This document shows, in pieces, positions 21,964 to 46,659 of a DNA stretch of 64,000 bases. Made by a program: the position numbers and the translations under genes. Location of the stretch: NCBI GenBank assembly GCA_000002445.1, contig CP000067.1, positions 1,024,001 to 1,088,000 of the forward strand, read 5' to 3'. The DNA is from Trypanosoma brucei (lineage: Eukaryota). The notes beneath the pieces are model-generated. The model saw only the letters and a list, made by a program, of their open reading frames with translations, made no database searches and was not told the DNA's origin. Each line of letters opens with the position of its first letter. The first letter of the stretch is position 1.

Positions 21964-24525
21964 TTATTCATCACTGTCAGTTTCATCACCCGGTATTTCA
22001 AAGGCATCGGATGCAGCCACCCTGAACCTGTCCAATCCATCCTCAGAACTTTCGGAATTGTCGTTTCCATGGTTTTGTGGTGAAGGCGGCGCTTGCGGCT
22101 GCGGTACGTCCATTGCCGGCTCGGGTTCATCGGCTTGGGTCTCTTCAACAACGGGCACTTCTTCAGCTGCAGGTTCAGTTGCAATCTCCTCAGCTTCCGG
22201 CCCTTCTTCAGCTTCCAACTCTTCTGTAAGCTCGCAGGATTCCTCATGAGCCGCTTGTGAGACCTCTTTATCCATTTGCGGCTGGTCATCGTTTAGTATT
22301 GTTTCAGCATTGAGTGACACAGGTTCTTCTGCTTCAGTCACGATATATTCCCTTATTGCCTCTGCATCTTCTTCATTGTTTTCGTAGTATACTTCCGCTG
22401 GAGAGAGGCCCCATCCCCAAAAGGGTGTTGGTTCCGCATCAGCTGCTTTTACTTGCCATTCACGTACAGCACCAGGCACCCGGTAGGAGGTAAATGTGAC
22501 GCAGTTGCGAAACACGCGACAAGTCGGTTCAAGTGTGGTGAAGTGAATGTCAAGCTTTTCGTCCAATGGTGTGCTGGACCGAATGCCAATTACGAAACCC
22601 TTGCGGCGACCCTCGCATGTTCCCCCGCGGTGGATGCGAGGAATGACAAAGTATGGAGTCTCGCTGGCTTCAAAGGTACATTTCATCGCAACGTCTCGCC
22701 CCACAACAAAGTTAAAGCCTTCTGCAGGGGTTTCGGGATCAGAGCTGCTGCATTGATACACAAATTGTTTATTGCCCTCCGCACGGGAGACACACAGTAA
22801 CACAGGCGACAGTTTTACATCAGGAGACTCTAAGGGAAGACCGCGTTTATCCCTCTGCGAAAGAGTTAACACAACTTCAACGGTTTCCTTTGCCCGAATC
22901 ATAAGCACAAGATTGGGATGTTCATTGTCAAATTCACCAGCAACACGGTAGTCATACACCGGCTTCTCGTCCAAGTACAGAACTCCGCAACCATTAAATA
23001 CCTCAACAGCTTCTGACCATTCGATGAAAAATATACCGTCATGCGCTTCGAAGCACGGCTCGCAACTCGACTGTATCTCGCTGTGCTCGGTCCACTTGTC
23101 GCTACCTTCTCGCCACTGACCGGACCACGGCATCGCAGGTTCCCACGGGTTGAACATCTTCAGAAGCGTAATGTTCTCCTCAGGGAAGTTGTGGACAGAC
23201 AGCAGCGCGTATGAGTAACCTTCCCTGAGACCATTCGCAACAGCGGTTGCTGCTTTCCTTCCGGTTGGAACGCTCAAAATGACGGGATTGTGAGCTTCAA
23301 CATATCCCGTAATCTTCTGAATGAGTGCATTCTTTTTCTCCTCATCCGTCGCCGCGTCACGCCATGCTTTATCGAATCGGTACACTGGCGCTCCAGTAAA
23401 GTTCTGTAGGGCGAGGAGTGTGTCGCCTCCTGTGATGCTTGCATAAGAGCCATACAATTTTGCGTAAGCTTTTTGCAGCAAAGATGGCCACAACTCTCCG
23501 GAGTCATCGATGCAGCGTGCGTAGCATGGCACACCACCAACTGTTGGAAGAAAGTCATCTACCAGAATGTTCTTCCACCATCCGTCTTTGTTCAGTAGGA
23601 CACGGTAGGCGCCCATTTGCTTCTCGGCAGGTGTGGTGGAGGCAAACATCGCCTTGACGCGTTCCTCATCGGTGGCAAGCAGGGAAAGCGCACTTACGAA
23701 CCACGAATCTCCAAGCGTGCCCGCCTCCACGCAGGAGGAAAGGACGACACCGCGCACAGCATCGATATTTTCCTCGCCACATTGAGCAAACTCGCTTGGA
23801 CGACGCACCTCCACTGGCTGGATAAACCGACCATCACCATCAAGGCGTGAGAACATGCTGTTTGACGGGAGGAAATTTATGTCAGCGTAACGCACAAGAG
23901 AGTCTGAGCATAGTTTTAGAAGTTCTTCATCGTCCACTTCTTCCCACGGTAGTGCCATGACCGCCTCCACATCTTTCTTACCTTCCTCACTGATAATCTG
24001 GAGATGATTGTAGTACTGCTGGGACAGTGGGTGTGCGTACACATCAACTGTATTCAACACCACTGAACCAGAAAGGAACTCCAGTGTTTCTAGTGGGTAT
24101 ACAACGGCAGATATGACGGTCTCTCCATTCTCTTTTGTATTCACTGTTGTTGCTTCACAATGTTCCACATATGACTCGGGGGCGATAACGACCTGTACGC
24201 ACATCTCATAGTTCATGGTGTCGTTGTAGAAGAACCAGCGACCCTCTTCATCAATGATGCGGAAACATTGGCCCTTCGGTGGGAAGAATGACGTCACTTC
24301 ACCGGTAACGGTGCATTTGTTGTACACGAAACCCGTCTCTTTCACTGCAATGACATTCTGAAGGCGTGCGGCTCTTGGAGTTAATGGCACCTCCTCAACT
24401 TCCTCAACCACTGACGCTTCCGATGGGACACTTGGCGATTTTGGCGGTGGTGTTGGTGGCTTTGGCGGAGGCGGTGCAGCCGCTTGAGGTGGCTGTGGCT
24501 TTACCTTTGATCCACCACAACCCAT
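21964..24525 (-). CDS. CAP5.5: Calpain-like cytoskeleton-associated protein (CAP5.5-like) with an N-terminal dual-acylation motif and an acidic C-terminal tail
   Basis: The 853-aa ORF has a verified ATG start. The N-terminus is MGCGGSKVKPQPP, with G2 available for myristoylation and C3 for palmitoylation, followed by a Pro-rich stretch. The calpain core carries LGDSWFVSALSLLA (Cys replaced by Ser) and REGYSYALL where GHAYS is expected. The C-terminal 150 aa are E/D/P-rich. The gene symbol comes from my recall of T. brucei CAP5.5 and has not been checked. Confidence 0.75.
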   Translation of the reverse strand: MGCGGSKVKPQPPQAAAPPPPKPPTPPPKSPSVPSEASVVEEVEEVPLTPRAARLQNVIAVKETGFVYNKCTVTGEVTSFFPPKGQCFRIIDEEGRWFFYNDTMNYEMCVQVVIAPESYVEHCEATTVNTKENGETVISAVVYPLETLEFLSGSVVLNTVDVYAHPLSQQYYNHLQIISEEGKKDVEAVMALPWEEVDDEELLKLCSDSLVRYADINFLPSNSMFSRLDGDGRFIQPVEVRRPSEFAQCGEENIDAVRGVVLSSCVEAGTLGDSWFVSALSLLATDEERVKAMFASTTPAEKQMGAYRVLLNKDGWWKNILVDDFLPTVGGVPCYARCIDDSGELWPSLLQKAYAKLYGSYASITGGDTLLALQNFTGAPVYRFDKAWRDAATDEEKKNALIQKITGYVEAHNPVILSVPTGRKAATAVANGLREGYSYALLSVHNFPEENITLLKMFNPWEPAMPWSGQWREGSDKWTEHSEIQSSCEPCFEAHDGIFFIEWSEAVEVFNGCGVLYLDEKPVYDYRVAGEFDNEHPNLVLMIRAKETVEVVLTLSQRDKRGLPLESPDVKLSPVLLCVSRAEGNKQFVYQCSSSDPETPAEGFNFVVGRDVAMKCTFEASETPYFVIPRIHRGGTCEGRRKGFVIGIRSSTPLDEKLDIHFTTLEPTCRVFRNCVTFTSYRVPGAVREWQVKAADAEPTPFWGWGLSPAEVYYENNEEDAEAIREYIVTEAEEPVSLNAETILNDDQPQMDKEVSQAAHEESCELTEELEAEEGPEAEEIATEPAAEEVPVVEETQADEPEPAMDVPQPQAPPSPQNHGNDNSESSEDGLDRFRVAASDAFEIPGDETDSDE

Positions 24526-26098: not shown

Positions 26099-28722
26099 TT
26101 TCTGTATTCCTCCACAAATAATAGTAATAATATATATATATATATATATATAATCTCTTCAGTTCTATGTTGTTGCCCTGTTTATATATTTATTTATTAA
26201 ATCCTCCTCTTCTGTTATTCCTTTAGTGGGCACACACGTTTTGAGGGACACGCCGCTAGCAGCAGAACAAAGCGAGCGTAACGAAAGAAAAGCTATAAAA
26301 TCTTGGAGTTATCAAGACACTTTCATAGCATAAAGAAATGAGCCCTTCCGCTTACATTCTCCATCCAGTGAGGATGATTCACACATTGCGTTACATGGAG
26401 ATGCAATCACCCCTCGTTATGATTAGCGATAACATAAATGAAGAATTTTCATGGCGGTTACACCACCGAGCAAACTCTTCTCATTTTGTTTCATTTCGAT
26501 ATTCTTTCACTGACAAAAAGGAACAAACAATTGATAAGTTGAATATAATCTCTCTGCCCCAACACGATAGAGAGAATTTATGGCTTTTTAGCCATTTTTT
26601 TTCGCATGTTTTTTTCTTTGTGACAACAGCGACCCGAAACTCGCACATTCCGACGTCCATGACCGAGACACCTAAGCAAAGTGCTGAATCTTACATACTA
26701 GAGAATTACATACACACACACGTATATAATATAATATAACATAATATAAATATATATATATGTGTATTTTCCTGCCTGAGAGTTCGTCCATGTTCGCATG
26801 GTTTTTTTTCATTTTCGAAATGACACGTCGCTAATTTAAGTCAGCAGCGGGGTGCGAAAGCGGGTAGCATTTTCATCCACTACCTTCTTTCTTCTTCTTA
26901 TTTATTTAATTTGTTTTTATTTGTTTTGAAGGCAATGACATAGCACCGATTTGTGGTCTAGAGGCTTCTGTTAACATGACGCAGCAATATATGCACATAT
27001 TTTGTTTACAAGTGAAACACTAAATGGCATATTTTAACATGAAAAAGAAAAAATTAAACAATATGGGAAGAAGAGCTACGTGTAAGGAAGGAAATAATAA
27101 AAATAAATAAAAAATATATATATATATATTAAAAATAAGGGCAGAAAGAGAACACAAAAAGAAGACAATAGGAAGAAAAACGCTTGAACAGAAGTGCGGA
27201 AACCCTATTCAAATTCACCGTGTATATATAAATATAAATATAAATAAATAATTAAATAAATAAATAAATATATGAGTGTGTGTGTGAGAGAGCGTGGATG
27301 GCAATGAAAAGAAGTGAAAAGTAAAAGAAGAAAAAGAAAAAAAACAAAGGGAAATAAGTGAAGGAGGTGGTGAATGACAAGAATACGAAAAGGAAAAGAA
27401 AAAAAAAAGAGCGATGATAACACTGCTGTGAAGGTAGCGGTTGGAGTGGAGGGAAGGAAGGGAGGCGGGAAAGTTATGGAAAAAAAAAAACAGGAGCAAA
27501 AAAAAAAAGGAAAACAAAGACACGGAAGGGAAACAATGGTACTACTACTAATAATGATAATAATGATGAATATAAATAAATATTTATTTCAAAACAAAAC
27601 AACACCAACAATGAAAATGAAAATGATGATGATGATGATGACAGGATAGCAAGGAATGAAGGAGGGTAGAAATGGACAGACGAAAGGGAGAAAAAAAAAA
27701 GAGAAGAAAAAAAACGTACCCTGGGGGAAATCCCGGAAGTTTTGAAGGGAAGCAACATTCAACGGCAATTAATGAACAGTTTTTTTCCGTTTTATTCTTT
27801 TCGCCCTTCAAAAGAAAAAAAAGGAACACCAAGCAGAGCAATGAGGGTAAAGAATAAAAAAAAAAAGTCGAAGCAAAATAAGACATATTAATGGCAAAAA
27901 CGAAAACAAAAGAGGTAAAAATCGACCAAATGAATGAATTGAGAGAAAATCTTAGACGGTTAAGTCTTTTGTTTTTTTCCCCCTCCTTAGAAAAGTCAAA
28001 TAATGAGTAAAATTTCCCCTTCATATCTTCGTGTGCATATTAGCCTACAGGAGCGCTCAACTATTTTTCTTTTTTACTCCTTCCTTCCTTCCCTTTTTGT
28101 TGTTGCTTCTTTTATTTCATTTTGTATTACTTTCCTTATATATTGTACTAAAATTATTCTCATTGCTGTAGTTTTTTTTTTCTTTCTCTTCCTTCAGTTA
28201 CCTTTTCCCTCTTGAAACACTTATGTAAATAGATATATTCATTCAATTATTGCATTTCTTCCTTGTTTTATTCGTAAAATAGTCAAATGTCCGATGAATA
28301 AAAGGAAAAATCACCAAAAAAAAAGAAAAAAACAAGACAAATGCCCGCAAGAATAATTAAAAAAAAAAAAGAGGCGACGCACATTTTTTTTTTTAAAGGA
28401 GAAAATTGGAACGGACGTAACGCTGCGTGCTTGAGGCCTGCCGAAGCAGATGGATAAATACATAAAAGTAAATAATCACCAACAAAAATATGAAGTAAAA
28501 ATAAATGAATTGAAAAAAAAAACGGTAAAATATTAAAACAAATAAAAATATAAATGGTGGTGGTGGTGGTGGGGGAACACGAGGGACGGGGAAGTTTCTT
28601 TGTTTGTTTTTTAAATGAAGGGGCATAAAATAAAATGGCCGAGTGCAACCAAATGTCTCCCCTCATATCATCGTTATTATTATTATTGCTGTTGTTATAT
28701 TTTTATATGAATATGACTTCAA

Positions 28723-28762
28723 AGAGAGAGAGAGAGAGAAAAGGTGTGTGTGTGTGTGTGTG
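28723..28762. repeat. Compound (AG)n-(GT)n dinucleotide repeat
   Basis: Directly visible as agagagagagagagaga aaag gtgtgtgtgtgtgtgtgtg, inside the long low-complexity spacer. Confidence 0.9.
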
Positions 28763-30473
28763 CGGGAAGTGAAAAAAAAAATGAAATAAGAAAAAGAAAA
28801 CGGAACAAAAACAAAACAAAACGAAATATAACAATGAGCCAAAATGACAACAACAACAAAGAGAAGAACAAGCGCCTGTACTGAGCTGACGATGCACTCT
28901 TTTTTTTTTTTTTGTTGTTGTCACTTACTAAAAAAAACATTGACAGAAATGATAAGGGATAGGATGATGTTCTCACACCCCCGTTCTATCGGTAGTTGTA
29001 ATAAAAATAATAATGATTATGATAATAATAAAGATTACTATCGTTAAAGAACAAGAATAAATCGGATAACTGCATTTGTGCCCACATATATATTTACTTT
29101 TTTTTTTTAAAATTTCGTTTCTCCTCTATGCGTACAAGAATGTGCAGGCGCGTGGGGTCCATACATCAAGTGCGCTAAAAGGAGTATACGTTGCAGAAGC
29201 AAATTAGTAACAGTTTGAATATATAAATAAATAAACAAATAAATAAATATGTACAGAAATACAAAAATATATTGCTTCTCTTGTTCTTGTCTGTTATTAT
29301 ATTTTTCCTTCACACACCGGAAGACACGAAGGAAATGCAACACGTATGTATGGGAAAGAAATAATAAGACGCGCACTTTGGAAGCAACACGGCAAAGCGG
29401 GAGTTGCGAGCCAAACAACAACAACAAAAACAATGACAAAGCAAACAGAAGGGTGGGGGGGGGGAAATAGGAGCACCGAGAGCAAAACGAATCCTAAAAT
29501 AAACGAAAGTTGAAGCAACAAACAGACAAAAAGAAAAAAAAAACAAACGAAAAACAAAAAAGGCAAACACAACAACCGGAAGAATAATAAGATGAATGCA
29601 AACAAAATGGCAAATCCACGGCATCACCATATTTGAGACGGGGTCCGGTGGTTTTCTTTTTTATTTAAAATAATGCATTTTAAAGAAAAAGAAATAAAAT
29701 CTAAAACAAAAAATGGTTCCCTGTCATTTAATGAACGCAATTACCTAACATATTTTTATTCGTCTATCGCCCACTCGTCTTTATTGTCTCTGTTTTACAC
29801 GGCCTCTGCATCTCCGTAAGTTATACATGTTTTAAGGTTTATATAAATAAATGACAAAATATATAAATACTAAAACAATGCACTTAAGAGGTGTCGAGAG
29901 GGTTTATAAGCATACGCGTGTATGTGAGAAGTAAACGACAAACCGTGGCTTGAAAACCTTTTTTCTTCACGTTTTCTTCCCCCTCTCTAGAAAATGAATT
30001 CTGTTCCTTCGATTTTTCCCACCCCCCCAAATCGAGCTCCTCATCAAAATAACACACACACACAAAAAAAAAACAGACAAAACAAAACACGAACAAGGAC
30101 GCGCGCCCACTCCAACTGAAATATTTTCCCTTTCCCTTCTTTTATTTTTTATTTTTCTCCCTTCCCCTCACCTTCTGTGAGCAGAATGCGACTTACTTCG
30201 GTACAACTAAAAAGAGAGATGAGGTTGCAGAACAGGGAGATAAATAACTCCTTCCCCCACCTCCAAAGCAACAAAAGACGAGAAAACGGGAGGAAAACAA
30301 CAACAACAACAACAAAAAAGAGGACAGCTGCAAACACTCACACTCACTCATATATATAGACACACACACAAACATACATATACATATACCGACGAAAAAG
30401 AAAAAGAAAGAGCAAACGAAACACAATAAAGAAAGAACAACAACAGCAACAACAAAGGAAGTGACTGATACAT

Positions 30474-34258: not shown

Positions 34259-35788
34259 CCATTTCAGAATTTGTACCAACACTCCAAGTGCCGCCGGTTT
34301 GCGTACCGTATGCCGCTGAGAGTTACCTGCGCACGACTGTCCTGTCGTCACACAAAGATTTGGAGAAAAGAACAGCGGGTAAAGAGGAGTCGGCATCGCT
34401 AGTGTTTCCGTGCAAGGCAAAAGAAAAAAAAACGGGAAAGAAAACAACAACAAGCAAACACAAAAGAAGGGAAAACGTCATGCGACCGCAAACCGCCAAG
34501 CGGAAAGGGGGACTCCGCACGACGGTTAAATGAATTAATTATCAGCGGTGTTCGCGCAATTCATTAAATTATTGAAAAGTGGGGATTCGTGCAACCTGTC
34601 ATTTTTGTTTTTTGTGACGCGTAGTTTGTCACTCAACAAGTAATATGACATATTTTTGTGTGTGCCATGTGACTTTCCTTGAAACTACGAAGGGGAAGAA
34701 GGGTTCAGAATTCTCAATTTGTGTAAATAAATGAACTAATCAGAGGAAAAAAAAAGGGGAAACAGGGAAGAGATAATAATAATAAAAGAACCGCCACAAT
34801 TCCGTGGCTTAAAGCTGAGCAGGTGACAGACATATGCGAGGGTTATGCAGTGATAGAAAAAAAAATAGCAGTCCGCAGTGGGAGCGCACACCTGGTCAGA
34901 AAAAAAAGTAAAATAAAGAAATAAAAAGAAAATTAGCCCTTTCCGAATTTCTCAACGCCCACTCAAAGTTGTGGAGTGTACTGGGCAAAAATAAAATAAA
35001 AGACAAAAAGTAGATAAATACAACAACAAGCACACCAATAAATAGGAGGGAGAGCAAAAGAAATCAGAAAAAAAATTAGGGAAAAACATTGAGGAGGAAA
35101 ATGACGGTGACGAGTGGGGGAATATGAAACAAAGAGAATATATATATATATATATATAGGAATGACACGCATATTTTTTTTTTTTCATTTTCCCTTTTGA
35201 CACTCCACTCAAATCATTCGCTCTTTTCGTCCCCTCACCCGATCGCCATCATTAACCAAACTTTGATATCGCAGGCTGTGAAATTGCTCAAGACCGGACA
35301 AAACGAGGGAAAATAAAACAAAAAAAAATAGAAAGTTGAGAAAGGTGTTGACACCACACATTATATTAAATACAAAAAAAACAATGAACGATGCTCATCA
35401 CAGTGGTCAGGATACCTGCCAGTGGTGCACGATGGAAAGAAGTCCATGCGAAGGCCTTCCTCTACTTTTTTCCCTCTTTCGAAACGCATTATTACTCATT
35501 TAAAAGACATTAACAACAATAACAACAACAAAATAATTACAAAGATATTATTTTTTAAAGTTAAAAAGAAACTAGGGTAGGGTAGAGAGGAAAACGAAAC
35601 AAAACAAGCATAAGAAAGGTGATAGCATACAGTTGTGACCACTTTACCTTAAATAGAAATTTACTTTCTCTTTATATCTTGTTACACCCAGGGGCTTAGT
35701 GGGAAATAAGCACTTTCTCAGCTCTTGTCAGCGCCTCAAACTTAAGAATTGAGTCCGCCGCATGCTGGCACTTACGTTTAGTTTATGT

Positions 35789-37159
35789 TCATCCCCTGAC
35801 GGTATCCAAAATGGTGGAGCCGGTGCCGAACACAATAAGAAACACACCGCACAGCAGCACCACATAAGTCGTAATGTAATATAAGGGCCCAACTTTCTGC
35901 CATGTGAAGCCCCCTGAGTACATAATCAACAACGCGGGGAAGACGAAACCCAGTGAACCACCACACACAGATCCGGCAATACCAAACACGGTGGTGATCT
36001 TCGGGATGAATATACTCAAAAGCAAAACAAGGAACGACAGTGTAATGACTGACACGCAATGCTTCCAAAAGGGTAGAGAATCCGCAGTCTTCCCAACGAC
36101 GTCATACAATGCATTACGACACGCCATAGCAACTAGGGCATAGGATACGCATAGTTTGATAACGACGCCAATCATACCAACCATTACAGCCGGCTCCTTT
36201 ACGGGGTCGTACATAAGCAAAATAGAACTGGTTGCGGTCTTACCAAAGTCCATGTAACCGAAAAAGGCAGTGATTATGTACATTATACAGCAAAGGGTAT
36301 TGGCAATGATGGCCGCAATAACAAACTTACGTACTGAACGATCCTTCATGTCAATATAAACTTCGTACGCTGTAATCTGCGATATGAATGCGAACATAAA
36401 TACTCCCATTCCCTCAATGGCCTGGAATCCGCTGTTGAATAGGATGATTTCGGCATCTTCGCTCTTGGTCACACTAACATTCTTTATATTCTCCGACAAG
36501 CCATTCATGCACGAGTGCACAACGATCACAATGACAAAATACACCATGAAGGTAACGGCAAAAGTGGAGACGTACCGAAGGGAGTCGATGTGACGCGGAA
36601 TCGTCAGTGGAAGCATAAAACATGCCCAAACCACCGCCATGAGAAGACGATTACCTGATTTTTCCTTCAGGAAGTCCGGCGCATTTGTGCCTTTCAAAAT
36701 GGCAGACAAAATATCTCCCACTGAAATCACGTAGGCAACACAACCACTAAAACCGAGTAGCGCTCGAATACCAGCAAGAACATACGCAGCCCCGCGGCCG
36801 AGAAGTGCGCGAGTTGCCCTCTCGAAGGTGGGGGCTCCTGAGCGGTCGGCTGCGACTGAGAGGTTGTGCATCGTGAAAACCGTTACGGAAGAGATGAAAA
36901 TGAGGTAAAACATTCCCATGATAAGGCCGGTACTGTTGGCCGCCGGAGGCATCCCGAAGATTCCCGCACCGATTGTTGTTGACGCCATGTTAAAAGCACT
37001 GGCCGCAATGCCACCCGGAGGCAAAACAGTGGCGACGCACAAACTCACCTTCGTAAAGAATGTGTTTCGCCCCTTCTTCACGTTATCTTCGGTCTGCACC
37101 GGTTCATTGGAGAGGTTGTTTGGCGTTTGCACTTCTTGTTGTTGCTTGGAGTTGCTCAT
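35789..37159 (-). CDS. Amino acid transporter, tandem array copy 1 (456 aa)
   Basis: The track ORF opens at a GTG 102 codons upstream. I placed the start at MSNSKQQQ because a polypyrimidine tract and an AG lie immediately upstream, the length then matches the paralogs, and the N-terminus aligns with the diverged 471-aa copy. The coding sequence is identical to copy 2. Confidence 0.8.
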   Translation of the reverse strand: MSNSKQQQEVQTPNNLSNEPVQTEDNVKKGRNTFFTKVSLCVATVLPPGGIAASAFNMASTTIGAGIFGMPPAANSTGLIMGMFYLIFISSVTVFTMHNLSVAADRSGAPTFERATRALLGRGAAYVLAGIRALLGFSGCVAYVISVGDILSAILKGTNAPDFLKEKSGNRLLMAVVWACFMLPLTIPRHIDSLRYVSTFAVTFMVYFVIVIVVHSCMNGLSENIKNVSVTKSEDAEIILFNSGFQAIEGMGVFMFAFISQITAYEVYIDMKDRSVRKFVIAAIIANTLCCIMYIITAFFGYMDFGKTATSSILLMYDPVKEPAVMVGMIGVVIKLCVSYALVAMACRNALYDVVGKTADSLPFWKHCVSVITLSFLVLLLSIFIPKITTVFGIAGSVCGGSLGFVFPALLIMYSGGFTWQKVGPLYYITTYVVLLCGVFLIVFGTGSTILDTVRG

Positions 37160-37217
37160 TGCGTCTTGCAGTCGATTAGCACTTTTAGGGACTTCTTTTA
37201 CCCACAGAGTTTCGGGA

Positions 37218-37250
37218 ACAAAAGGATGAAAGAGAAAGAGCATGAGGAAG
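37218..37250 (-). promoter_or_regulatory. Polypyrimidine tract plus AG upstream of AAT copy 1, a candidate trans-splice acceptor region (repeated in units 2 and 3)
   Basis: The minus strand reads cctcatgctctttctctttcatccttttgttccc, then gaaactctgtgggtaaaagaag, and then the ATG about 60 nt downstream. This is the kinetoplastid polyY/AG architecture. I have no mapping data. Confidence 0.4.
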
Positions 37251-38208
37251 TGATGTGCAAGGAAAGTTAGATATGCACAAGTTGGTGCGTACCATGTCTG
37301 AAAGTTTATTGAAGAAGATGCAAGCACACACCTGGAGAGACGCAAATGACGTTCGCCTCCCTTCGTTTTGTGCTTGAGCTGTGCAGCAGTTGCCCCGATG
37401 ATTGTAATGCACACGAGGTGATTTCCATACCAACGTTGAATAGAGTTGTTTGAGGGCAAATTCACTTGCCACTGGAGTTACAAACGCATAAAGTCGTTTC
37501 GGCATGCTAGTGATTGTTTGCTCACGTTTCTTGTCGATTGCGCCACTTCTTCAGTACCATACGACTTCATGCGAGATGAAGAGCGGGGAAGACTTCTGCA
37601 AGACAAAACTTAAAATGTTGCAGTGCTTTGAAGCAGAGTGGACATACACATAACTTTGCTCCTTGATACCACAGCTAGGAACGCAGCGCCCCAAAGTTAT
37701 GAATTACATATGAACTTGATGCACTTGATGGAAGCGGCACCGCGTGAATGCCACTACTGAAAGTGTATGAAAGGAAAGAAAAGACAATAAGAATATTAGG
37801 GGAAAGAACAAAGAAGGGGTTAATGTTTCGCAATTACCATTTAACCTAGTGGTATACCTGAGATAATAAAATCAGCGGTGCACCGAAAGAAACGCTGCAC
37901 AGCCTGAGCACCGAGGGAGGAAGTTGAGGTAAAAAGAAAAAAAAAGAAACCATAAAACAAAAAAGAAACCGAAAGGGACCCTCGAATGGTATCGCAGAAG
38001 CAGCATTTGGAGATGAGTGGACGCATGGAGTCGGCAAACTTGACGGTTTTACCACCGCTTTATTCAACGGCAATGGAGCCACCGCCTCCAGCCGCATCGC
38101 ATAATACGGCCAAATCACTGCAATTCGCACCTCCGCTTGTTGTATTTTCTAATCGGCGGACGTAACGAGGGAAAAACGATGGGACCCCAACGAGATGACA
38201 ACGACAAA

Positions 38209-41200
38209 AGAAAAAAAAGTAAAATAAAGAAATAAAAAGAAAATTAGCCCTTTCCGAATTTCTCAACGCCCACTCAAAGTTGTGGAGTGTACTGGGCAAA
38301 AATAAAATAAAAGACAAAAAGTAGATAAATACAACAACAAGCACACCAATAAATAGGAGGGAGAGTAAAAGAAATCAGAAAAAAAATTAGGGAAAAACAT
38401 TGAGGAGGAAAATGACGGTGACGGGTGGGGGAATATGAAACAAAGAGAATATATATATATATATATAGGAATGACACGCATATTTTTTTTTTTTCATTTT
38501 CCCTTTTGACACTCCACTCAAATCATTCGCTCTTTTCGTCCCCTCACCCGATCGCCATCATTAACCAAACTTTGATATCGCAGGCTGTGAAATTGCTCAA
38601 GACCGGACAAAACGAGGGAAAATAAAACAAAAAAAATAGAAAGTTGAGAAAGGTGTTGACACCACACATTATATTAAATACAAAAAAAAACAATGAACGA
38701 TGCTCATCACAGTGGTCAGGATACCTGCCAGTGGTGCACGATGGAAAGAAGTCCATGCGAAGGCCTTCCTCTACTTTTTTCCCTCTTTCGAAACGCATTA
38801 TTACTCATTTAAAAGACATTAACAACAATAACAACAACAAAATAATTACAAAGATATTATTTTTTAAAGTTAAAAAGAAACTAGGGTAGGGTAGAGAGGA
38901 AAACGAAACAAAACAAGCATAAGAAAGGTGATAGCATACAGTTGTGACCACTTTACCTTAAATAGAAATTTACTTTCTCTTTATATCTTGTTACACCCAG
39001 GGGCTTAGTGGGAAATAAGCACTTTCTCAGCTCTTGTCAGCGCCTCAAACTTAAGAATTGAGTCCGCCGCATGCTGGCACTTACGTTTAGTTTATGTTCA
39101 TCCCCTGACGGTATCCAAAATGGTGGAGCCGGTGCCGAACACAATAAGAAACACACCGCACAGCAGCACCACATAAGTCGTAATGTAATATAAGGGCCCA
39201 ACTTTCTGCCATGTGAAGCCCCCTGAGTACATAATCAACAACGCGGGGAAGACGAAACCCAGTGAACCACCACACACAGATCCGGCAATACCAAACACGG
39301 TGGTGATCTTCGGGATGAATATACTCAAAAGCAAAACAAGGAACGACAGTGTAATGACTGACACGCAATGCTTCCAAAAGGGTAGAGAATCCGCAGTCTT
39401 CCCAACGACGTCATACAATGCATTACGACACGCCATAGCAACTAGGGCATAGGATACGCATAGTTTGATAACGACGCCAATCATACCAACCATTACAGCC
39501 GGCTCCTTTACGGGGTCGTACATAAGCAAAATAGAACTGGTTGCGGTCTTACCAAAGTCCATGTAACCGAAAAAGGCAGTGATTATGTACATTATACAGC
39601 AAAGGGTATTGGCAATGATGGCCGCAATAACAAACTTACGTACTGAACGATCCTTCATGTCAATATAAACTTCGTACGCTGTAATCTGCGATATGAATGC
39701 GAACATAAATACTCCCATTCCCTCAATGGCCTGGAATCCGCTGTTGAATAGGATGATTTCGGCATCTTCGCTCTTGGTCACACTAACATTCTTTATATTC
39801 TCCGACAAGCCATTCATGCACGAGTGCACAACGATCACAATGACAAAATACACCATGAAGGTAACGGCAAAAGTGGAGACGTACCGAAGGGAGTCGATGT
39901 GACGCGGAATCGTCAGTGGAAGCATAAAACATGCCCAAACCACCGCCATGAGAAGACGATTACCTGATTTTTCCTTCAGGAAGTCCGGCGCATTTGTGCC
40001 TTTCAAAATGGCAGACAAAATATCTCCCACTGAAATCACGTAGGCAACACAACCACTAAAACCGAGTAGCGCTCGAATACCAGCAAGAACATACGCAGCC
40101 CCGCGGCCGAGAAGTGCGCGAGTTGCCCTCTCGAAGGTGGGGGCTCCTGAGCGGTCGGCTGCGACTGAGAGGTTGTGCATCGTGAAAACCGTTACGGAAG
40201 AGATGAAAATGAGGTAAAACATTCCCATGATAAGGCCGGTACTGTTGGCCGCCGGAGGCATCCCGAAGATTCCCGCACCGATTGTTGTTGACGCCATGTT
40301 AAAAGCACTGGCCGCAATGCCACCCGGAGGCAAAACAGTGGCGACGCACAAACTCACCTTCGTAAAGAATGTGTTTCGCCCCTTCTTCACGTTATCTTCG
40401 GTCTGCACCGGTTCATTGGAGAGGTTGTTTGGCGTTTGCACTTCTTGTTGTTGCTTGGAGTTGCTCATTGCGTCTTGCAGTCGATTAGCACTTTTAGGGA
40501 CTTCTTTTACCCACAGAGTTTCGGGAACAAAAGGATGAAAGAGAAAGAGCATGAGGAAGTGATGTGCAAGGAAAGTTAGATATGCACAAGTTGGTGCGTA
40601 CCATGTCTGAAAGTTTATTGAAGAAGATGCAAGCACACACCTGGAGAGACGCAAATGACGTTCGCCTCCCTTCGTTTTGTGCTTGAGCTGTGCAGCAGTT
40701 GCCCCGATGATTGTAATGCACACGAGGTGATTTCCATACCAACGTTGAATAGAGTTGTTTGAGGGCAAATTCACTTGCCACTGGAGTTACAAACGCATAA
40801 AGTCGTTTCGGCATGCTAGTGATTGTTTGCTCACGTTTCTTGTCGATTGCGCCACTTCTTCAGTACCATACGACTTCATGCGAGATGAAGAGCGGGGAAG
40901 ACTTCTGCAAGACAAAACTTAAAATGTTGCAGTGCTTTGAAGCAGAGTGGACATACACATAACTTTGCTCCTTGATACCACAGCTAGGAACGCAGCGCCC
41001 CAAAGTTATGAATTACATATGAACTTGATGCACTTGATGGAAGCGGCACCGCGTGAATGCCACTACTGAAAGTGTATGAAAGGAAAGAAAAGACAATAAG
41101 AATATTAGGGGAAAGAACAAAGAAGGGGTTAATGTTTCGCAATTACCATTTAACCTAGTGGTATACCTGAGATAATAAAATCAGCGGTGCACCGAAAGAA

Positions 41201-41517
41201 ACGCTGCACAGCCTGAGCACCGAGGGAGGAAGTTGAGGTAAAAAGAAAAAAAAAGAAACCATAAAACAAAAAAGAAACCGAAAGGGACCCTCGAATGGTA
41301 TCGCAGAAGCAGCATTTGGAGATGAGTGGACGCATGGAGTCGGCAAACTTGACGGTTTTACCACCGCTTTATTCAACGGCAATGGAGCCACCGCCTCCAG
41401 CCGCATCGCATAATACGGCCAAATCACTGCAATTCGCACCTCCGCTTGTTGTATTTTCTAATCGGCGGACGTAACGAGGGAAAAACGATGGGACCCCAAC
41501 GAGATGACAACGACAAA
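38209..41517 (-). repeat. Tandem repeat unit 2 (about 3309 bp) carrying AAT copy 2
   Basis: It is near-identical to unit 1. Its (TA)n is (TA)9, and it has one spacer SNP against unit 1 (gacgagtggggg against gacgggtggggg). Confidence 0.85.
39098..40468 (-). CDS. Amino acid transporter, tandem array copy 2 (456 aa)
   Basis: The translation is identical to copy 1. I verified the ATG at 40468-40466 directly (plus-strand cat). Confidence 0.8.
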   Translation of the reverse strand: MSNSKQQQEVQTPNNLSNEPVQTEDNVKKGRNTFFTKVSLCVATVLPPGGIAASAFNMASTTIGAGIFGMPPAANSTGLIMGMFYLIFISSVTVFTMHNLSVAADRSGAPTFERATRALLGRGAAYVLAGIRALLGFSGCVAYVISVGDILSAILKGTNAPDFLKEKSGNRLLMAVVWACFMLPLTIPRHIDSLRYVSTFAVTFMVYFVIVIVVHSCMNGLSENIKNVSVTKSEDAEIILFNSGFQAIEGMGVFMFAFISQITAYEVYIDMKDRSVRKFVIAAIIANTLCCIMYIITAFFGYMDFGKTATSSILLMYDPVKEPAVMVGMIGVVIKLCVSYALVAMACRNALYDVVGKTADSLPFWKHCVSVITLSFLVLLLSIFIPKITTVFGIAGSVCGGSLGFVFPALLIMYSGGFTWQKVGPLYYITTYVVLLCGVFLIVFGTGSTILDTVRG

Positions 41518-44500
41518 AGAAAAAAAAGTAAAATAAAGAAATAAAAAGAAAATTAGCCCTTTCCGAATTTCTCAACGCCCACTCAAAGTTGTGGAGTGTA
41601 CTGGGCAAAAATAAAATAAAAGACAAAAAGTAGATAAATACAACAACAAGCACACCAATAAATAGGAGGGAGAGTAAAAGAAATCAGAAAAAAAATTAGG
41701 GAAAAACATTGAGGAGGAAAATGACGGTGACGGGTGGGGGAATATGAAACAAAGAGAATATATATATATATATATATATATAGGAATGACACGCATATTT
41801 TTTTTTTTTCATTTTCCCTTTTGACACTCCACTCAAATCATTCGCTCTTTTCGTCCCCTCACCCGATCGCCATCATTAACCAAACTTTGATATCGCAGGC
41901 TGTGAAATTGCTCAAGACCGGACAAAACGAGGGAAAATAAAACAAAAAAAATAGAAAGTTGAGAAAGGTGTTGACACCACACATTATATTAAATACAAAA
42001 AAAACAATGAACGATGCTCATCACAGTGGTCAGGATACCTGCCAGTGGTGCACGATGGAAAGAAGTCCATGCGAAGGCCTTCCTCTACTTTTTTCCCTCT
42101 TTCGAAACGCATTATTACTCATTTAAAAGACATTAACAACAATAACAACAACAAAATAATTACAAAGATATTATTTTTTAAAGTTAAAAAGAAACTAGGG
42201 TAGGGTAGAGAGGAAAACGAAACAAAACAAGCATAAGAAAGGTGATAGCATACAGTTGTGACCACTTTACCTTAAATAGAAATTTACTTTCTCTTTATAT
42301 CTTGTTACACCCAGGGGCTTAGTGGGAAATAAGCACTTTCTCAGCTCTTGTCAGCGCCTCAAACTTAAGAATTGAGTCCGCCGCATGCTGGCACTTACGT
42401 TTAGTTTATGTTCATCCCCTGACGGTATCCAAAATGGTGGAGCCGGTGCCGAACACAATAAGAAACACACCGCACAGCAGCACCACATAAGTCGTAATGT
42501 AATATAAGGGCCCAACTTTCTGCCATGTGAAGCCCCCTGAGTACATAATCAACAACGCGGGGAAGACGAAACCCAGTGAACCACCACACACAGATCCGGC
42601 AATACCAAACACGGTGGTGATCTTCGGGATGAATATACTCAAAAGCAAAACAAGGAACGACAGTGTAATGACTGACACGCAATGCTTCCAAAAGGGTAGA
42701 GAATCCGCAGTCTTCCCAACGACGTCATACAATGCATTACGACACGCCATAGCAACTAGGGCATAGGATACGCATAGTTTGATAACGACGCCAATCATAC
42801 CAACCATTACAGCCGGCTCCTTTACGGGGTCGTACATAAGCAAAATAGAACTGGTTGCGGTCTTACCAAAGTCCATGTAACCGAAAAAGGCAGTGATTAT
42901 GTACATTATACAGCAAAGGGTATTGGCAATGATGGCCGCAATAACAAACTTACGTACTGAACGATCCTTCATGTCAATATAAACTTCGTACGCTGTAATC
43001 TGCGATATGAATGCGAACATAAATACTCCCATTCCCTCAATGGCCTGGAATCCGCTGTTGAATAGGATGATTTCGGCATCTTCGCTCTTGGTCACACTAA
43101 CATTCTTTATATTCTCCGACAAGCCATTCATGCACGAGTGCACAACGATCACAATGACAAAATACACCATGAAGGTAACGGCAAAAGTGGAGACGTACCG
43201 AAGGGAGTCGATGTGACGCGGAATCGTCAGTGGAAGCATAAAACATGCCCAAACCACCGCCATGAGAAGACGATTACCTGATTTTTCCTTCAGGAAGTCC
43301 GGCGCATTTGTGCCTTTCAAAATGGCAGACAAAATATCTCCCACTGAAATCACGTAGGCAACACAACCACTAAAACCGAGTAGCGCTCGAATACCAGCAA
43401 GAACATACGCAGCCCCGCGGCCGAGAAGTGCGCGAGTTGCCCTCTCGAAGGTGGGGGCTCCTGAGCGGTCGGCTGCGACTGAGAGGTTGTGCATCGTGAA
43501 AACCGTTACGGAAGAGATGAAAATGAGGTAAAACATTCCCATGATAAGGCCGGTACTGTTGGCCACCGGAGGCATCCCGAAGATTCCCGCACCGATTGTT
43601 GTTGACGCCATGTTAAAAGCACTGGCCGCAATGCCACCCGGAGGCAAAACAGTGGCGACGCACAAACTCACCTTCGTAAAGAATGTGTTTCGCCCCTTCT
43701 TCACGTTATCTTCGGTCTGCACCGGTTCATTGGAGAGGTTGTTTGGCGTTTGCACTTCTTGTTGTTGCTTGGAGTTGCTCATTGCGTCTTGCAGTCGATT
43801 AGCACTTTTAGGGACTTCTTTTACCCACAGAGTTTCGGGAACAAAAGGATGAAAGAGAAAGAGCATGAGGAAGTGATGTGCAAGGAAAGTTAGATATGCA
43901 CAAGTTGGTGCGTACCATGTCTGAAAGTTTATTGAAGAAGATGCAAGCACACACCTGGAGAGACGCAAATGACGTTCGCCTCCCTTCGTTTTGTGCTTGA
44001 GCTGTGCAGCAGTTGCCCCGATGATTGTAATGCACACGAGGTGATTTCCATACCAACGTTGAATAGAGTTGTTTGAGGGCAAATTCACTTGCCACTGGAG
44101 TTACAAACGCATAAAGTCGTTTCGGCATGCTAGTGATTGTTTGCTCACGTTTCTTGTCGATTGCGCCACTTCTTCAGTACCATACGACTTCATGCGAGAT
44201 GAAGAGCGGGGAAGACTTCTGCAAGACAAAACTTAAAATGTTGCAGTGCTTTGAAGCAGAGTGGACATACACATAACTTTGCTCCTTGATACCACAGCTA
44301 GGAACGCAGCGCCCCAAAGTTATGAATTACATATGAACTTGATGCACTTGATGGAAGCGGCACCGCGTGAATGCCACTACTGAAAGTGTATGAAAGGAAA
44401 GAAAAGACAATAAGAATATTAGGGGAAAGAACAAAGAAGGGGTTAATGTTTCGCAATTACCATTTAACCTAGTGGTATACCTGAGATAATAAAATCAGCG

Positions 44501-44841
44501 GTGCACCGAAAGAAATGCTGCACAGCCTGAGCACCGAGGGAGGAAGTTGAGGTAAAAAGAAAAAAAAAGAAACCATAAAACAAAAAAGAAACCGAAAGGG
44601 ACCCTCGAATGGTATCGCAGAAGCAGCATTTGGAGATGAGTGGACGCATGGAGTCGGCAAACTTGACGGTTTTACCACCGCTTTATTCAACGGCAATGGA
44701 GCCACCGCCTCCAGCCGCATCGCATAATACGGCCAAATCACTGCAATTCGCACCTCCGCTTGTTGTATTTTCTAATCGGCGGACGTAACGAGGGAAAAAC
44801 GATGGGACCCCAACGAGATGACAACGACAAAAGAAAAAAAA
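41518..44841 (-). repeat. Tandem repeat unit 3 (about 3323 bp) carrying AAT copy 3
   Basis: Its (TA)n is (TA)12. It has one coding SNP (Ala to Val) and two or more spacer SNPs near 44470-44760. Homology to the other units ends at about 44841, where the sequence diverges into unique sequence upstream of the 471-aa paralog. Confidence 0.85.
42412..43782 (-). CDS. Amino acid transporter, tandem array copy 3 (456 aa), one substitution relative to copies 1 and 2
   Basis: It is identical to copies 1 and 2 except MPPVANSTG against MPPAANSTG (Ala to Val). The same nucleotide change shows in the antisense track ORF (LLATGG against LLAAGG). Confidence 0.8.
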   Translation of the reverse strand: MSNSKQQQEVQTPNNLSNEPVQTEDNVKKGRNTFFTKVSLCVATVLPPGGIAASAFNMASTTIGAGIFGMPPVANSTGLIMGMFYLIFISSVTVFTMHNLSVAADRSGAPTFERATRALLGRGAAYVLAGIRALLGFSGCVAYVISVGDILSAILKGTNAPDFLKEKSGNRLLMAVVWACFMLPLTIPRHIDSLRYVSTFAVTFMVYFVIVIVVHSCMNGLSENIKNVSVTKSEDAEIILFNSGFQAIEGMGVFMFAFISQITAYEVYIDMKDRSVRKFVIAAIIANTLCCIMYIITAFFGYMDFGKTATSSILLMYDPVKEPAVMVGMIGVVIKLCVSYALVAMACRNALYDVVGKTADSLPFWKHCVSVITLSFLVLLLSIFIPKITTVFGIAGSVCGGSLGFVFPALLIMYSGGFTWQKVGPLYYITTYVVLLCGVFLIVFGTGSTILDTVRG

Positions 44842-45243
44842 GAAAACAAAAGAATTTGAGCAGGAATTTTTTTGGGAAAAAGAGATGAAATTTGCTTCAC
44901 ATGTTGTAAAGATCAAGTACTTTAATCGTTCCACAATGCAGTGGCGAAGTAAAAGATGAAAGAAGACCTACCACCAAACCAATGAAAAAAGAACCGAAAG
45001 TGGTCCGCTCATTCGCTACCACTGCGGCAGCAAAAAAAGAGGGAAAATGAGTGGAATGCGAAAGGGTGGAGACAACTGTTGCCGAAAGAGTGAAGACACG
45101 TTGGTGGCGGTTAACTATCCTCCGCTGCGTTCAATGGTAATAGGCAGATAAGTAACAAAACATCTGATTTATTTATTTACTTATTTACTGACTCTCCTCC
45201 TTTACCTCCTTTTTTTCTTCAATAGGAACTTCAAAGCCGCCGG

Positions 45244-46659
45244 TTAACCAGTTATAGTGCCCCATATACTTGCACCCGTGCCGAAAACAATGCCTACAAC
45301 ACCACAAATTAGTAAAACATATGTCGCAAGATAATGTAAAGACCCAACTTTCTGCCATGTGAAGCCCCCTGAGTACATAATCAACAACGCGGGGAAGACG
45401 AAACCCAGTGAACCACCGGTAATCGAGCCAGAAAAACCAAGGACGGTATTAACATTGGGAATGAATAGACCCAAAAGCAGTGCAGCAGTGGACAGCACGA
45501 TGACTGACACGCAATGCTTCCAAAAGGGTAGAGAATCCACATTCTTCTCTGCAATGCTGTACAATGCATTACGACACGCCATAGCGAGCAGCGCATACGA
45601 AGCAACCAGCTTTACAAGCACGCCAATCATACCAACCATTACAGCCGGCTCCTTTACGGGGTCGTACATAAGCAAAATAGAACCGGAAACAGCACGACCA
45701 AAGTCCATGTAACCGAAAAAGGCAGTGATTATGTACAGCGCAGTACACAGGGACATGGCAATGATGGCCGCAATAACAAACTTACGTACTGAACGATCCT
45801 TCATGTCAATATAAACTTCATACGCCGTGTCCTGACAAGTGTAGGAAAACATAAATACTCCCAACCCTTCAATGGCTTCATTCCCGCTATTAAAGAGAAT
45901 GATGGCAGCTGTATCACTCTTTCCAACACTAACATTCTTTATATTCTCCGACAAGCCATTCATGCACGAGTGCACAACGATCACAATGACAAAATACACC
46001 ATGAAGGTAACGGCAAAAGTGGAGACGTACCGAAGGGAGTCGACGTGACGCGGGATCGCCAGTGGAAGCATAAAACATGCCCAAACCACCGCCGTGAGAA
46101 GACGATTACCTGATTTTTCCTTCAGGAAGTCCGGCGCATTTGTGCCTTTCAAAATGGCAGACAAAATATCTCCCACTGAAATTACGTAGGCAACACAACT
46201 CGTAAAACCATCAAGCGCTCGAAGAACAGCAATGGCATAAGCAACTCTACGACCCATGAGGACAAATGTTACGCTTTCATATGTGGGTGCTTTGGAGCGG
46301 TCCGCTGCGAGGGCGAGATTACGCATGGAATAGATAGTCATGCAACTAATAAAAAAGAGGTAAAACATTCCCATGATAAGTCCACTGCTGCCGGCCGATG
46401 ACGGCAAGCCAAAGATGCCAGCGCCCAGCGTTGTCGCTGCGATGTTGAAGGCACTGGCGATTGTACCTCCGGGAGGGATGAATGCAGCAAATTGTGTGCT
46501 CTGCTCACCAGGAGGTTGCTTCCCTGATTGGGGTTCGTTTGATTGAACATTTTGACTGGTTTCACAGTTTCCAACGTTATTATTGACAACGGTGTGACCG
46601 ATCGGCTCGAAACAATTGTGAGGTACGGTGTTGCTTGTATTTTCTCTGGCAATACACAT
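45244..46659 (-). CDS. Amino acid transporter, diverged mosaic paralog at the upstream end of the array (471 aa)
   Basis: The ATG start is verified. The N-terminal 65 aa diverge from the array copies. Long internal blocks are identical to them: CVAYVISVGDILSAILKGTNAPDFLKEKSGNRLL, RYVSTFAVTFMVYFVIVIVVHSCMNGLSENIKNVSV, ILLMYDPVKEPAVMVGMIGV and GGSLGFVFPALLIMYSGGFTWQKVG. Diverged blocks are interspersed between these. Confidence 0.8.
   Translation of the reverse strand: MCIARENTSNTVPHNCFEPIGHTVVNNNVGNCETSQNVQSNEPQSGKQPPGEQSTQFAAFIPPGGTIASAFNIAATTLGAGIFGLPSSAGSSGLIMGMFYLFFISCMTIYSMRNLALAADRSKAPTYESVTFVLMGRRVAYAIAVLRALDGFTSCVAYVISVGDILSAILKGTNAPDFLKEKSGNRLLTAVVWACFMLPLAIPRHVDSLRYVSTFAVTFMVYFVIVIVVHSCMNGLSENIKNVSVGKSDTAAIILFNSGNEAIEGLGVFMFSYTCQDTAYEVYIDMKDRSVRKFVIAAIIAMSLCTALYIITAFFGYMDFGRAVSGSILLMYDPVKEPAVMVGMIGVLVKLVASYALLAMACRNALYSIAEKNVDSLPFWKHCVSVIVLSTAALLLGLFIPNVNTVLGFSGSITGGSLGFVFPALLIMYSGGFTWQKVGSLHYLATYVLLICGVVGIVFGTGASIWGTITG

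What the first reader, a model, noticed from the sequence alone, without database searches (positions are those of the whole stretch)
34898..44841. Near-identical 3.31-kb tandem triplication of an amino-acid-transporter gene, with microsatellite and single-SNP differences only
Three head-to-tail units are identical across both the 456-aa AAT CDS and about 1.9 kb of spacer. They differ only in the spacer (TA)n length (10, 9 and 12 repeats), one nonsynonymous change in copy 3 (Ala to Val in MPPAANSTG) and a few spacer SNPs. Identity that includes the non-coding spacer points to very recent duplication or ongoing concerted evolution by gene conversion or unequal crossing-over. That would be dosage amplification of one permease. 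Assemblers frequently collapse or mis-size arrays like this.
Basis: seen in the sequence. Interest (0 to 1): 0.6.

Follow-up and report, generated by a model that had tools for sequence, protein, structure and literature searches.

The report
Known trypanosome amino-acid-transporter gene array
The three near-identical 3.3-kb repeats are real, but they are the already annotated and published AAT2 amino-acid-transporter gene array on chromosome 4 of the Trypanosoma brucei reference genome, an ordinary example of how this parasite multiplies genes in tandem.

Summary
There are three head-to-tail units of 3311, 3309 and 3314 nt (34898-44831). They differ by 4 substitutions, 2 single-base homopolymer indels and (TA)10/9/12.

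The window is T. brucei brucei TREU927 chromosome 4, read as one minus-strand polycistron. By gene order, the three genes are Tb927.4.3990/4000/4010 (XP_844549-551). Together with the diverged fourth copy at 45244-46659 (TbAAT2-4, an ornithine/histidine transporter), they form the AAT2 locus catalogued by Jackson (2007, n=4).

- The T. b. gambiense DAL972 and T. b. equiperdum IVM-t1 assemblies each hold one unit at this position.
- The three TREU927 units differ from each other by 0.06-0.12%, against 0.73-0.86% from those orthologues.
- The unit junctions lie in an 11-nt A/T microhomology.
- The middle unit is an exact unit-1/unit-3 recombinant, as expected if unequal crossing-over took two copies to three.
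- A 257-nt gene-conversion tract links the units to TbAAT2-4.

Verdict: already known, low interest. True copy number per strain still needs long reads or read depth.

The parts
34898..38208 (-). Repeat unit 1, 3311 nt, the last unit in the direction of transcription. It carries the gene inferred to be Tb927.4.3990 (XP_844549).
   Evidence: for the unit. for 100% identity of the protein to P0014.
38209..41517 (-). Repeat unit 2, 3309 nt, the middle unit (Tb927.4.4000, XP_844550). Its 5' part in gene sense matches unit 1 and its 3' part matches unit 3.
41518..44831 (-). Repeat unit 3, 3314 nt, the first of the three to be transcribed (Tb927.4.4010, XP_844551). It carries the Ala73Val variant.
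   Evidence: One search lists P0081 as XP_844551, and one search shows P0081 with GMPPVANSTG.
35789..37159 (-). AAT CDS of unit 1 read from the second ATG: 456 aa, Aa_trans PF01490. The RefSeq annotation starts at 37243 and gives 484 aa.
39098..40468 (-). AAT CDS of unit 2, 456 aa, identical to the unit 1 CDS.
42412..43782 (-). AAT CDS of unit 3, 456 aa. G>A at 43565 on the + strand changes codon 73 from GCG to GTG (Ala to Val). This state is derived: DAL972, IVM-t1 and most paralogues have Ala.
35138..35157 (.). (TA)10 microsatellite in the 3' flank of unit 1. The equivalents are (TA)9 at 38449-38466 and (TA)12 at 41758-41781. DAL972 has 7 repeats and IVM-t1 has 5.
34898..34908 (.). 11-nt microhomology AGAAAAAAAAG that marks every unit boundary. 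It recurs at 38209-38219 and 41518-41528, and again just outside the array at 44832-44842. It is the presumed site of the founding illegitimate exchange.
   Evidence: for the boundary sequences. for the junction alignment with the single-copy strains.
45244..46659 (-). Fourth, diverged member of the array: TbAAT2-4 (Tb927.4.4020, XP_844552), 471 aa, a published high-affinity ornithine/histidine transporter.
   Evidence: for the exact match. for Pfam. PMC5602898 for function.
36471..36727 (-). 257-nt tract 98.4% identical to TbAAT2-4 (45926-46182), set in flanks with a mismatch every 3-4 nt. This is partial gene conversion between the paralogues. The equivalents are 39780-40036 and 43094-43350.

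Best explanation
This is the AAT2 tandem gene array of Trypanosoma brucei brucei TREU927 chromosome 4. It lies inside a long minus-strand polycistronic transcription unit.

Each 3.31-kb unit holds one amino-acid/auxin-permease-type transporter gene. The unit also includes about 1.05 kb of upstream and 0.89 kb of downstream processing sequence. Every copy therefore has its own trans-splicing and polyadenylation region and should add one more mRNA to the same transcript stream. That is gene dosage without promoters.

Proposed history (inferred):
1. A single unit, as in the DAL972 and IVM-t1 assemblies, was duplicated by an illegitimate exchange between two A/T-rich tracts 3.3 kb apart that share 11 nt.
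2. A two-copy array then became three copies by one unequal crossover between misaligned units. This made the middle unit a hybrid.
3. Occasional gene conversion also exchanges sequence with the older paralogue TbAAT2-4.

Shown here: the identity of the locus, the near-identity of the units, the single-unit state in two other assemblies, the recombinant pattern and the conversion tract. Inferred: the order of events, that the copy-number difference is biological, and the dosage effect.
For: - Locus identity: neighbouring proteins match TREU927 XP_844552, XP_844553 and XP_844555 exactly. The repeated protein is 100% identical to XP_844549/550, and the Val variant is XP_844551.
- Family: Pfam Aa_trans, E = 1.3e-44.
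- Transcription: all 21 ORFs of at least 200 aa lie on the minus strand.
- Prior publication: AAT2 is listed as 'Tb927.4.3990, n=4' in PMC1810246.
- Other strains: the DAL972 and IVM-t1 loci hold one unit between AAT2-4 and the DnaJ gene.
- Divergence: 0.06-0.12% within the array against 0.73-0.86% to the orthologues, and 48 alignment columns fixed in all three units but different in DAL972 and/or IVM-t1. Flank divergence between strains is about 1%, against 0-0.23% within the array.
- Recombination: at aligned columns 394 and 3183 the states are U3 = (A,C), U2 = (G,C) and U1 = (G,T), with both outgroups (A,T). All four combinations are present. U2 differs from U1 only in its 3' part and from U3 only in its 5' part. 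This is the product expected from a [U3][U1] x [U3][U1] unequal exchange.
- Junctions: they fall in the T8 (A8) tract.
- Conversion tract with AAT2-4.
- Published framework for dosage and unequal crossing-over in T. brucei arrays: PMC1855330.
Against: - The recombinant inference rests on only four substitutions. One homopolymer indel (aligned column 2906) does not fit it without a recurrent slip.
- Single-copy status in DAL972 may be an assembly choice. [quoted passage not shown]
- The differences between units (about 0.1%) are small enough to be allelic differences of the diploid placed into different copies.
- No expression or read-depth data were examined, so the dosage effect and true copy number are untested here.
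Confidence: 0.8

Rival explanations
1. The array is old and multi-copy in all T. brucei strains. Continuing unequal crossing-over and gene conversion keep it uniform (true concerted evolution). The single unit in DAL972 and IVM-t1 is then a collapsed assembly, not a biological difference.
For: - The authors of the DAL972 genome warn that assembled repeat number is arbitrary.
- The T. equiperdum OVI contig breaks inside the unit at the (TA)n tract and joins AAT2-4 to AAT2.1 sequence, as a repeat-confused assembly would.
- Gene conversion is demonstrably active at the locus.
- Jackson (PMC1855330) attributes invariant arrays to unequal crossing-over.
Against: - Two independent assemblies show a clean single unit with unique flanks on both sides and no ambiguity at the junction. 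One of them, IVM-t1, is from my memory a PacBio long-read assembly; I did not check this here.
- The protein cluster holds only one accession each for DAL972 and IVM-t1.
Confidence: 0.25
2. The triplication in the TREU927 reference is an assembly or finishing artefact. The true locus has one or two units per haplotype, and the few differences between 'copies' are allelic variants or sequencing errors.
For: - The differences are few (4 substitutions, 2 homopolymer indels and a microsatellite length), and most are of kinds typical of allelic or read-error variation.
- The other assemblies show one unit.
Against: - Three different (TA)n lengths and three distinguishable haplotypes need at least three templates, and a diploid with one copy offers only two.
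- The junction sequence, unit end joined to unit start across the T8 tract, is present twice, is absent from the single-copy strains, and is a clean microhomology join.
- From my memory, TREU927 chromosome 4 was finished from large-insert clones. I did not check this here.
Confidence: 0.08

Closest known systems
T. brucei AAT2 locus (Tb927.4.3990-4020), Jackson 2007, BMC Evol Biol 7:26 (PMC1810246)
   Same: It is the same locus. It has the same chromosome position, the protein sequences are those deposited for TREU927, and it has four members: three near-identical copies plus one diverged.
   Different: Nothing differs in kind. The unit-level details appeared in none of the passages I read of the papers I consulted. 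These details are the microhomology junction, the hybrid middle unit, one unit in DAL972 and IVM-t1, and the 257-nt conversion tract.
TbAAT2-4 (Tb927.4.4020) and TbAAT10-1, high-affinity ornithine (and histidine) transporters, Macedo et al. 2017 (PMC5602898)
   Same: TbAAT2-4 is the fourth gene of this array (45244-46659). The triplicated protein is 73-74% identical to TbAAT2-4 and to a chromosome-8 paralogue from the AAT10 region.
   Different: None of the papers found in the searched library reports a substrate for the triplicated genes. Their N-terminal third and C-terminal part differ clearly from TbAAT2-4, so the same substrate cannot be assumed.
'Invariant' tandem arrays of T. brucei that evolve by unequal crossing-over (tubulin, histones, PFR, cysteine peptidase), Jackson 2007, BMC Evol Biol 7:54 (PMC1855330)
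   Same: The copies are head-to-tail and identical in both coding and non-coding sequence. They are closer to each other than to orthologues. Copy number varies between genomes. The presumed purpose is dosage in a polycistronic genome.
   Different: This array has only three uniform copies. They sit beside a diverged older paralogue, so the whole array is of the 'moderately variable/mixed' type. Divergence from the orthologues is below 1%, because the comparison is within the species.

Membership tests
Amino acid/auxin permease (AAAP) family, Pfam Aa_trans PF01490 | Full-length match to the Aa_trans profile above the curated cut-off | tested here: met
   E = 1.3e-44, 152.9 bits (cut-off 25.6), residues 52-450 matching profile positions 6-409 of 410.
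Amino acid/auxin permease (AAAP) family, Pfam Aa_trans PF01490 | Demonstrated amino-acid transport activity | not testable with these tools
   Activity is published only for the neighbouring paralogue TbAAT2-4 (PMC5602898).
T. brucei AAT2 locus (Jackson 2007) | Position on TREU927 chromosome 4, next to the TRM13 gene (upstream in transcription) and the DnaJ gene (downstream), with GAT1 further upstream, and identity to the deposited proteins | tested here: met
   The flanking proteins are exact matches to XP_844552, XP_844553 and XP_844555 on a 1,590,432-bp contig. The repeated protein is 100% identical to XP_844549/550/551. PMC1810246 Table 1 lists AAT2 = Tb927.4.3990, n=4.
Tandem array under unequal crossing-over or concerted evolution | Head-to-tail repeats that include the intergenic sequence | tested here: met
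Tandem array under unequal crossing-over or concerted evolution | Paralogues within a genome are more alike than orthologues between genomes, at non-coding sites too | tested here: met
   0.06-0.12% against 0.73-0.86% overall. In the flanks, 0-0.23% against about 1%.
Tandem array under unequal crossing-over or concerted evolution | Evidence of exchange between copies (recombinant or mosaic copies) | tested here: met
   all four combinations of states at two sites, and a hybrid unit 2 (based on only 4 sites); a 257-nt conversion tract with AAT2-4.
Tandem array under unequal crossing-over or concerted evolution | Copy-number variation between individuals or strains | tested here: inconclusive
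   The assemblies show 3 (TREU927) against 1 (DAL972) and 1 (IVM-t1). Assembly collapse cannot be excluded without reads.
Dosage amplification | mRNA or protein output scales with copy number | not tested
   No expression data were analysed. Tb927.4.4000 is reported as transiently raised 1 h into stumpy-to-procyclic differentiation (PMC2753553), which says nothing about dosage.

The most novel reading that the evidence does not exclude
The expansion from one to three copies is real and specific to the TREU927 lineage, and happened recently relative to the divergence among these T. brucei strains. It would have been founded by an 11-nt microhomology join and then one unequal crossover. It would be a strain-level dosage polymorphism of a still uncharacterised AAT2 permease, one that is induced early in differentiation. 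Such a polymorphism could affect nutrient uptake or sensitivity to amino-acid-analogue drugs.
Probability: 0.45. Interest if true: 0.25.

Novelty: already known. Interest (0 to 1): 0.12.

Why it matters
It matters little beyond bookkeeping. The array is in the reference annotation and in two 2007 surveys of T. brucei tandem arrays, and its mode of evolution is the textbook one for this organism.

Three minor practical points follow:
- Copy number at this locus probably differs between strains or assemblies, so it should not be trusted from assemblies alone.
- RNAi or knockout designs against Tb927.4.3990-4010 will hit all three copies, and may hit TbAAT2-4 through the shared 257-nt tract.
- The annotated 484-aa start is probably 28 codons too long.

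Tried and rejected
- Exact look-up of the 456-aa protein found nothing, because the deposited proteins start 28 codons earlier. The homology search resolved this.
- The look-up of encoding contigs for the TREU927 proteins themselves returned nothing, so the TREU927 record could not be re-fetched. The comparison used DAL972, IVM-t1 and OVI instead.
- Rfam, tRNA and TRF scans of the window were empty. No snoRNA, tRNA or short-period array is associated with the units.
- A whole-window self-BLAST found no other repeat family outside 34-47 kb. No transposon-like repeat within the window flanks the array, so a transposon-mediated origin has no support.
- Small ORFs in the spacer are 61-106 aa, overlap one another and lie on both strands. 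I treated them as noise.
- The DAL972 genome paper's table of subspecies-specific segmental duplications does not list this locus.
- I considered selection on the spacer as the cause of its identity and rejected it. The same spacer differs by about 1% between strains.
Full report
**Observation**

A repeat search and a self-BLAST of 33-49 kb show three head-to-tail units: 34898-38208, 38209-41517 and 41518-44831. Pairwise identity is 99.64-99.73% over 3.3-6.6 kb.

A three-way alignment lists every difference:
- four substitutions: 35055 C/T/T, 35113 A/G/G, 36942-equivalent G/G/A and 37893-equivalent C/C/T;
- two single-base homopolymer indels;
- a TA microsatellite of 10, 9 and 12 repeats.

The one coding change is codon 73 GCG>GTG (Ala>Val) in unit 3. 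The ORF from the second ATG is 456 aa, and the spacer is 1.94 kb.

It lies directly upstream in the direction of transcription and belongs to the same array.

**What and where it is**

All 21 ORFs of at least 200 aa in the window lie on the minus strand, which is the signature of a trypanosomatid polycistronic unit.

Exact-sequence look-ups place the window on the 1,590,432-bp chromosome 4 of Trypanosoma brucei brucei TREU927. The 471-aa transporter, the TRM13 methyltransferase and the glycosomal ABC transporter GAT1 are exact matches to XP_844552, XP_844553 and XP_844555.

The repeated protein is 100% identical to XP_844549/XP_844550. The Val variant is XP_844551. All are deposited as 484-aa proteins that start 28 codons further upstream. 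The protein is a full-length Aa_trans (PF01490) transporter.

By gene order, the units are Tb927.4.3990, 4000 and 4010, and the fourth gene is Tb927.4.4020.

**Prior knowledge**

- Jackson's survey of trypanosomatid amino-acid-transporter loci lists 'AAT2: Tb927.4.3990, n = 4'. It derives AAT2 and AAT10 from a transposed copy of the AAT4/7 array, followed by the chromosome 4/8 block duplication (PMC1810246).
- His companion paper on all T. brucei tandem arrays describes arrays with identical coding and non-coding sequence as products of unequal crossing-over. It also discusses gene dosage in a promoter-less polycistronic genome (PMC1855330). Its array 'Tb26, amino acid transporter', present in T. 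brucei, T. b. gambiense, T. congolense and T. vivax, is probably this one. I infer that from the array numbering only.
- Tb927.4.4020 is TbAAT2-4, a characterised high-affinity ornithine/histidine transporter (PMC5602898).
- No substrate for the three identical genes turned up in the library searched.
- Tb927.4.4000 is reported as transiently raised 1 h into differentiation (PMC2753553).

**Comparison with other strains**

The orthologous loci of T. b. gambiense DAL972 (FN554967.1, L001) and T. b. equiperdum IVM-t1 (CM010675.1, L002) contain one unit between TbAAT2-4 and the DnaJ gene.

Substitution divergence:

| Comparison | Divergence |
|---|---|
| Between TREU927 units | 0.06-0.12% |
| TREU927 units vs DAL972 | 0.73% |
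| TREU927 units vs IVM-t1 | 0.86% |

In 48 alignment columns all three TREU927 units agree with each other and differ from DAL972 and/or IVM-t1. Only 12 columns vary among the units. The flanks alone differ by about 1% between strains but by 0-0.23% within the array. Uniformity of the spacer is therefore not due to constraint. It reflects either a recent origin or homogenisation.

**Mechanism**

In the single-copy strains the unit is bounded by two A/T-rich tracts. In TREU927 every junction reads unit-end / AGAAAAAAAAG / unit-start. The same 11-mer also follows the last unit, at 44832-44842. This is what a founding exchange between two short microhomologies 3.3 kb apart would leave.

The four substitutions are then informative (positions below are columns of the alignment, in gene sense):
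- At column 394, units 1 and 2 share a derived G.
- At column 3183, units 2 and 3 share a derived C.
- The outgroups carry A and T at these two columns, so all four combinations of states exist. Exchange between copies, or a recurrent mutation, is required.
- Unit 2 differs from unit 3 only at columns 394 and 1345. It differs from unit 1 only at columns 3183 and 3241.

A two-unit array [U3][U1] that pairs out of register with its sister or homologue, and crosses over between columns 1345 and 2960, yields exactly [U3][5'U1-3'U3][U1]. One homopolymer indel (column 2906) does not fit and needs an independent slip. With four sites this is suggestive, not proven.

**Exchange with the older paralogue**

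Between the triplicated CDS and TbAAT2-4, a 257-nt tract (36471-36727 against 45926-46182) has 4 mismatches. The sequence on either side has a mismatch every 3-4 nt. In DAL972 the tract is 257/257 identical, and IVM-t1 has a further converted tract of about 350 nt.

The T. equiperdum OVI contig carries a gene that is TbAAT2-4 in its 5' part. From that tract onward it is identical to the TREU927 unit sequence, including the 3' flank, and it ends in the (TA)n. This is either a recombinational fusion or a short-read chimera. Either way, the locus behaves as the published model of T. brucei arrays predicts.

**Rivals**

1. An old array homogenised everywhere, with collapsed assemblies elsewhere. 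The DAL972 authors themselves warn that assembled repeat number is arbitrary. I cannot exclude this without reads, and I give it about 0.25.
2. An artefactual triplication in TREU927. This is unlikely, because three distinct (TA)n lengths and three haplotypes need more templates than the two alleles of a single-copy locus. The novel junction is also a clean join that occurs twice.

**Verdict**

However, the locus and its mode of evolution are already annotated and published. The session adds a few unit-level details: the microhomology junction, the hybrid middle unit, one unit in two other assemblies, the conversion tract, and a probably over-long annotated start. None of these changes the picture. 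Interest is low.

Noticed in passing
window 36471-36727 and 45926-46182 (equivalents at 39780-40036 and 43094-43350): A 257-nt tract is 98.4% identical between the triplicated genes and the diverged paralogue TbAAT2-4, within otherwise 65-85% identical coding sequence. This is partial gene conversion. The tract is 100% identical in DAL972, and IVM-t1 has a second converted tract of about 350 nt further 3'.
   Followed up: yes
L003 (T. equiperdum OVI, CZPT02001693.1), 10001-12065: The annotated 471-aa transporter is a hybrid. Its 5' part is TbAAT2-4 and its 3' part plus 3' flank are identical to the TREU927 repeat unit. The switch lies in the shared conversion tract and the contig ends in the unit's (TA)n. 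It is either a deletion by unequal crossover or a short-read assembly chimera.
   Followed up: partly
window 37160-37243 (and 40469-40552, 43783-43866), minus strand: The RefSeq start codon (484 aa) sits inside a long polypyrimidine tract. AG dinucleotides follow that tract before the second ATG. The 28-residue extension (MLFLFHPFVPETLW...) aligns with no paralogue. The spliced-leader acceptor probably lies between the two ATGs, which would make 456 aa the true product.
   Followed up: partly
window 26100-30470: A stretch of about 4.3 kb has no ORF of 200 aa or more, is low-complexity and T-rich in gene sense, and has G+C of about 0.33. It lies between two genes of the polycistron and is full of homopolymers and short microsatellites. 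It is presumably a very long UTR or intergenic region. There were no Rfam or tRNA hits.
   Followed up: partly
L002 (T. b. equiperdum IVM-t1), 5682-6770: The TRM13 methyltransferase is called as 362 aa in IVM-t1, against 521 aa in TREU927, DAL972 and OVI. The likely cause is a frameshift or indel error in that assembly rather than a real truncation.
   Followed up: no
window 1-64000: Every ORF of at least 200 aa (21 of 21) is on the minus strand, so the window lies wholly inside one polycistronic transcription unit with no strand switch. A second low-G+C block (0.35) lies at 20001-22000.
   Followed up: no
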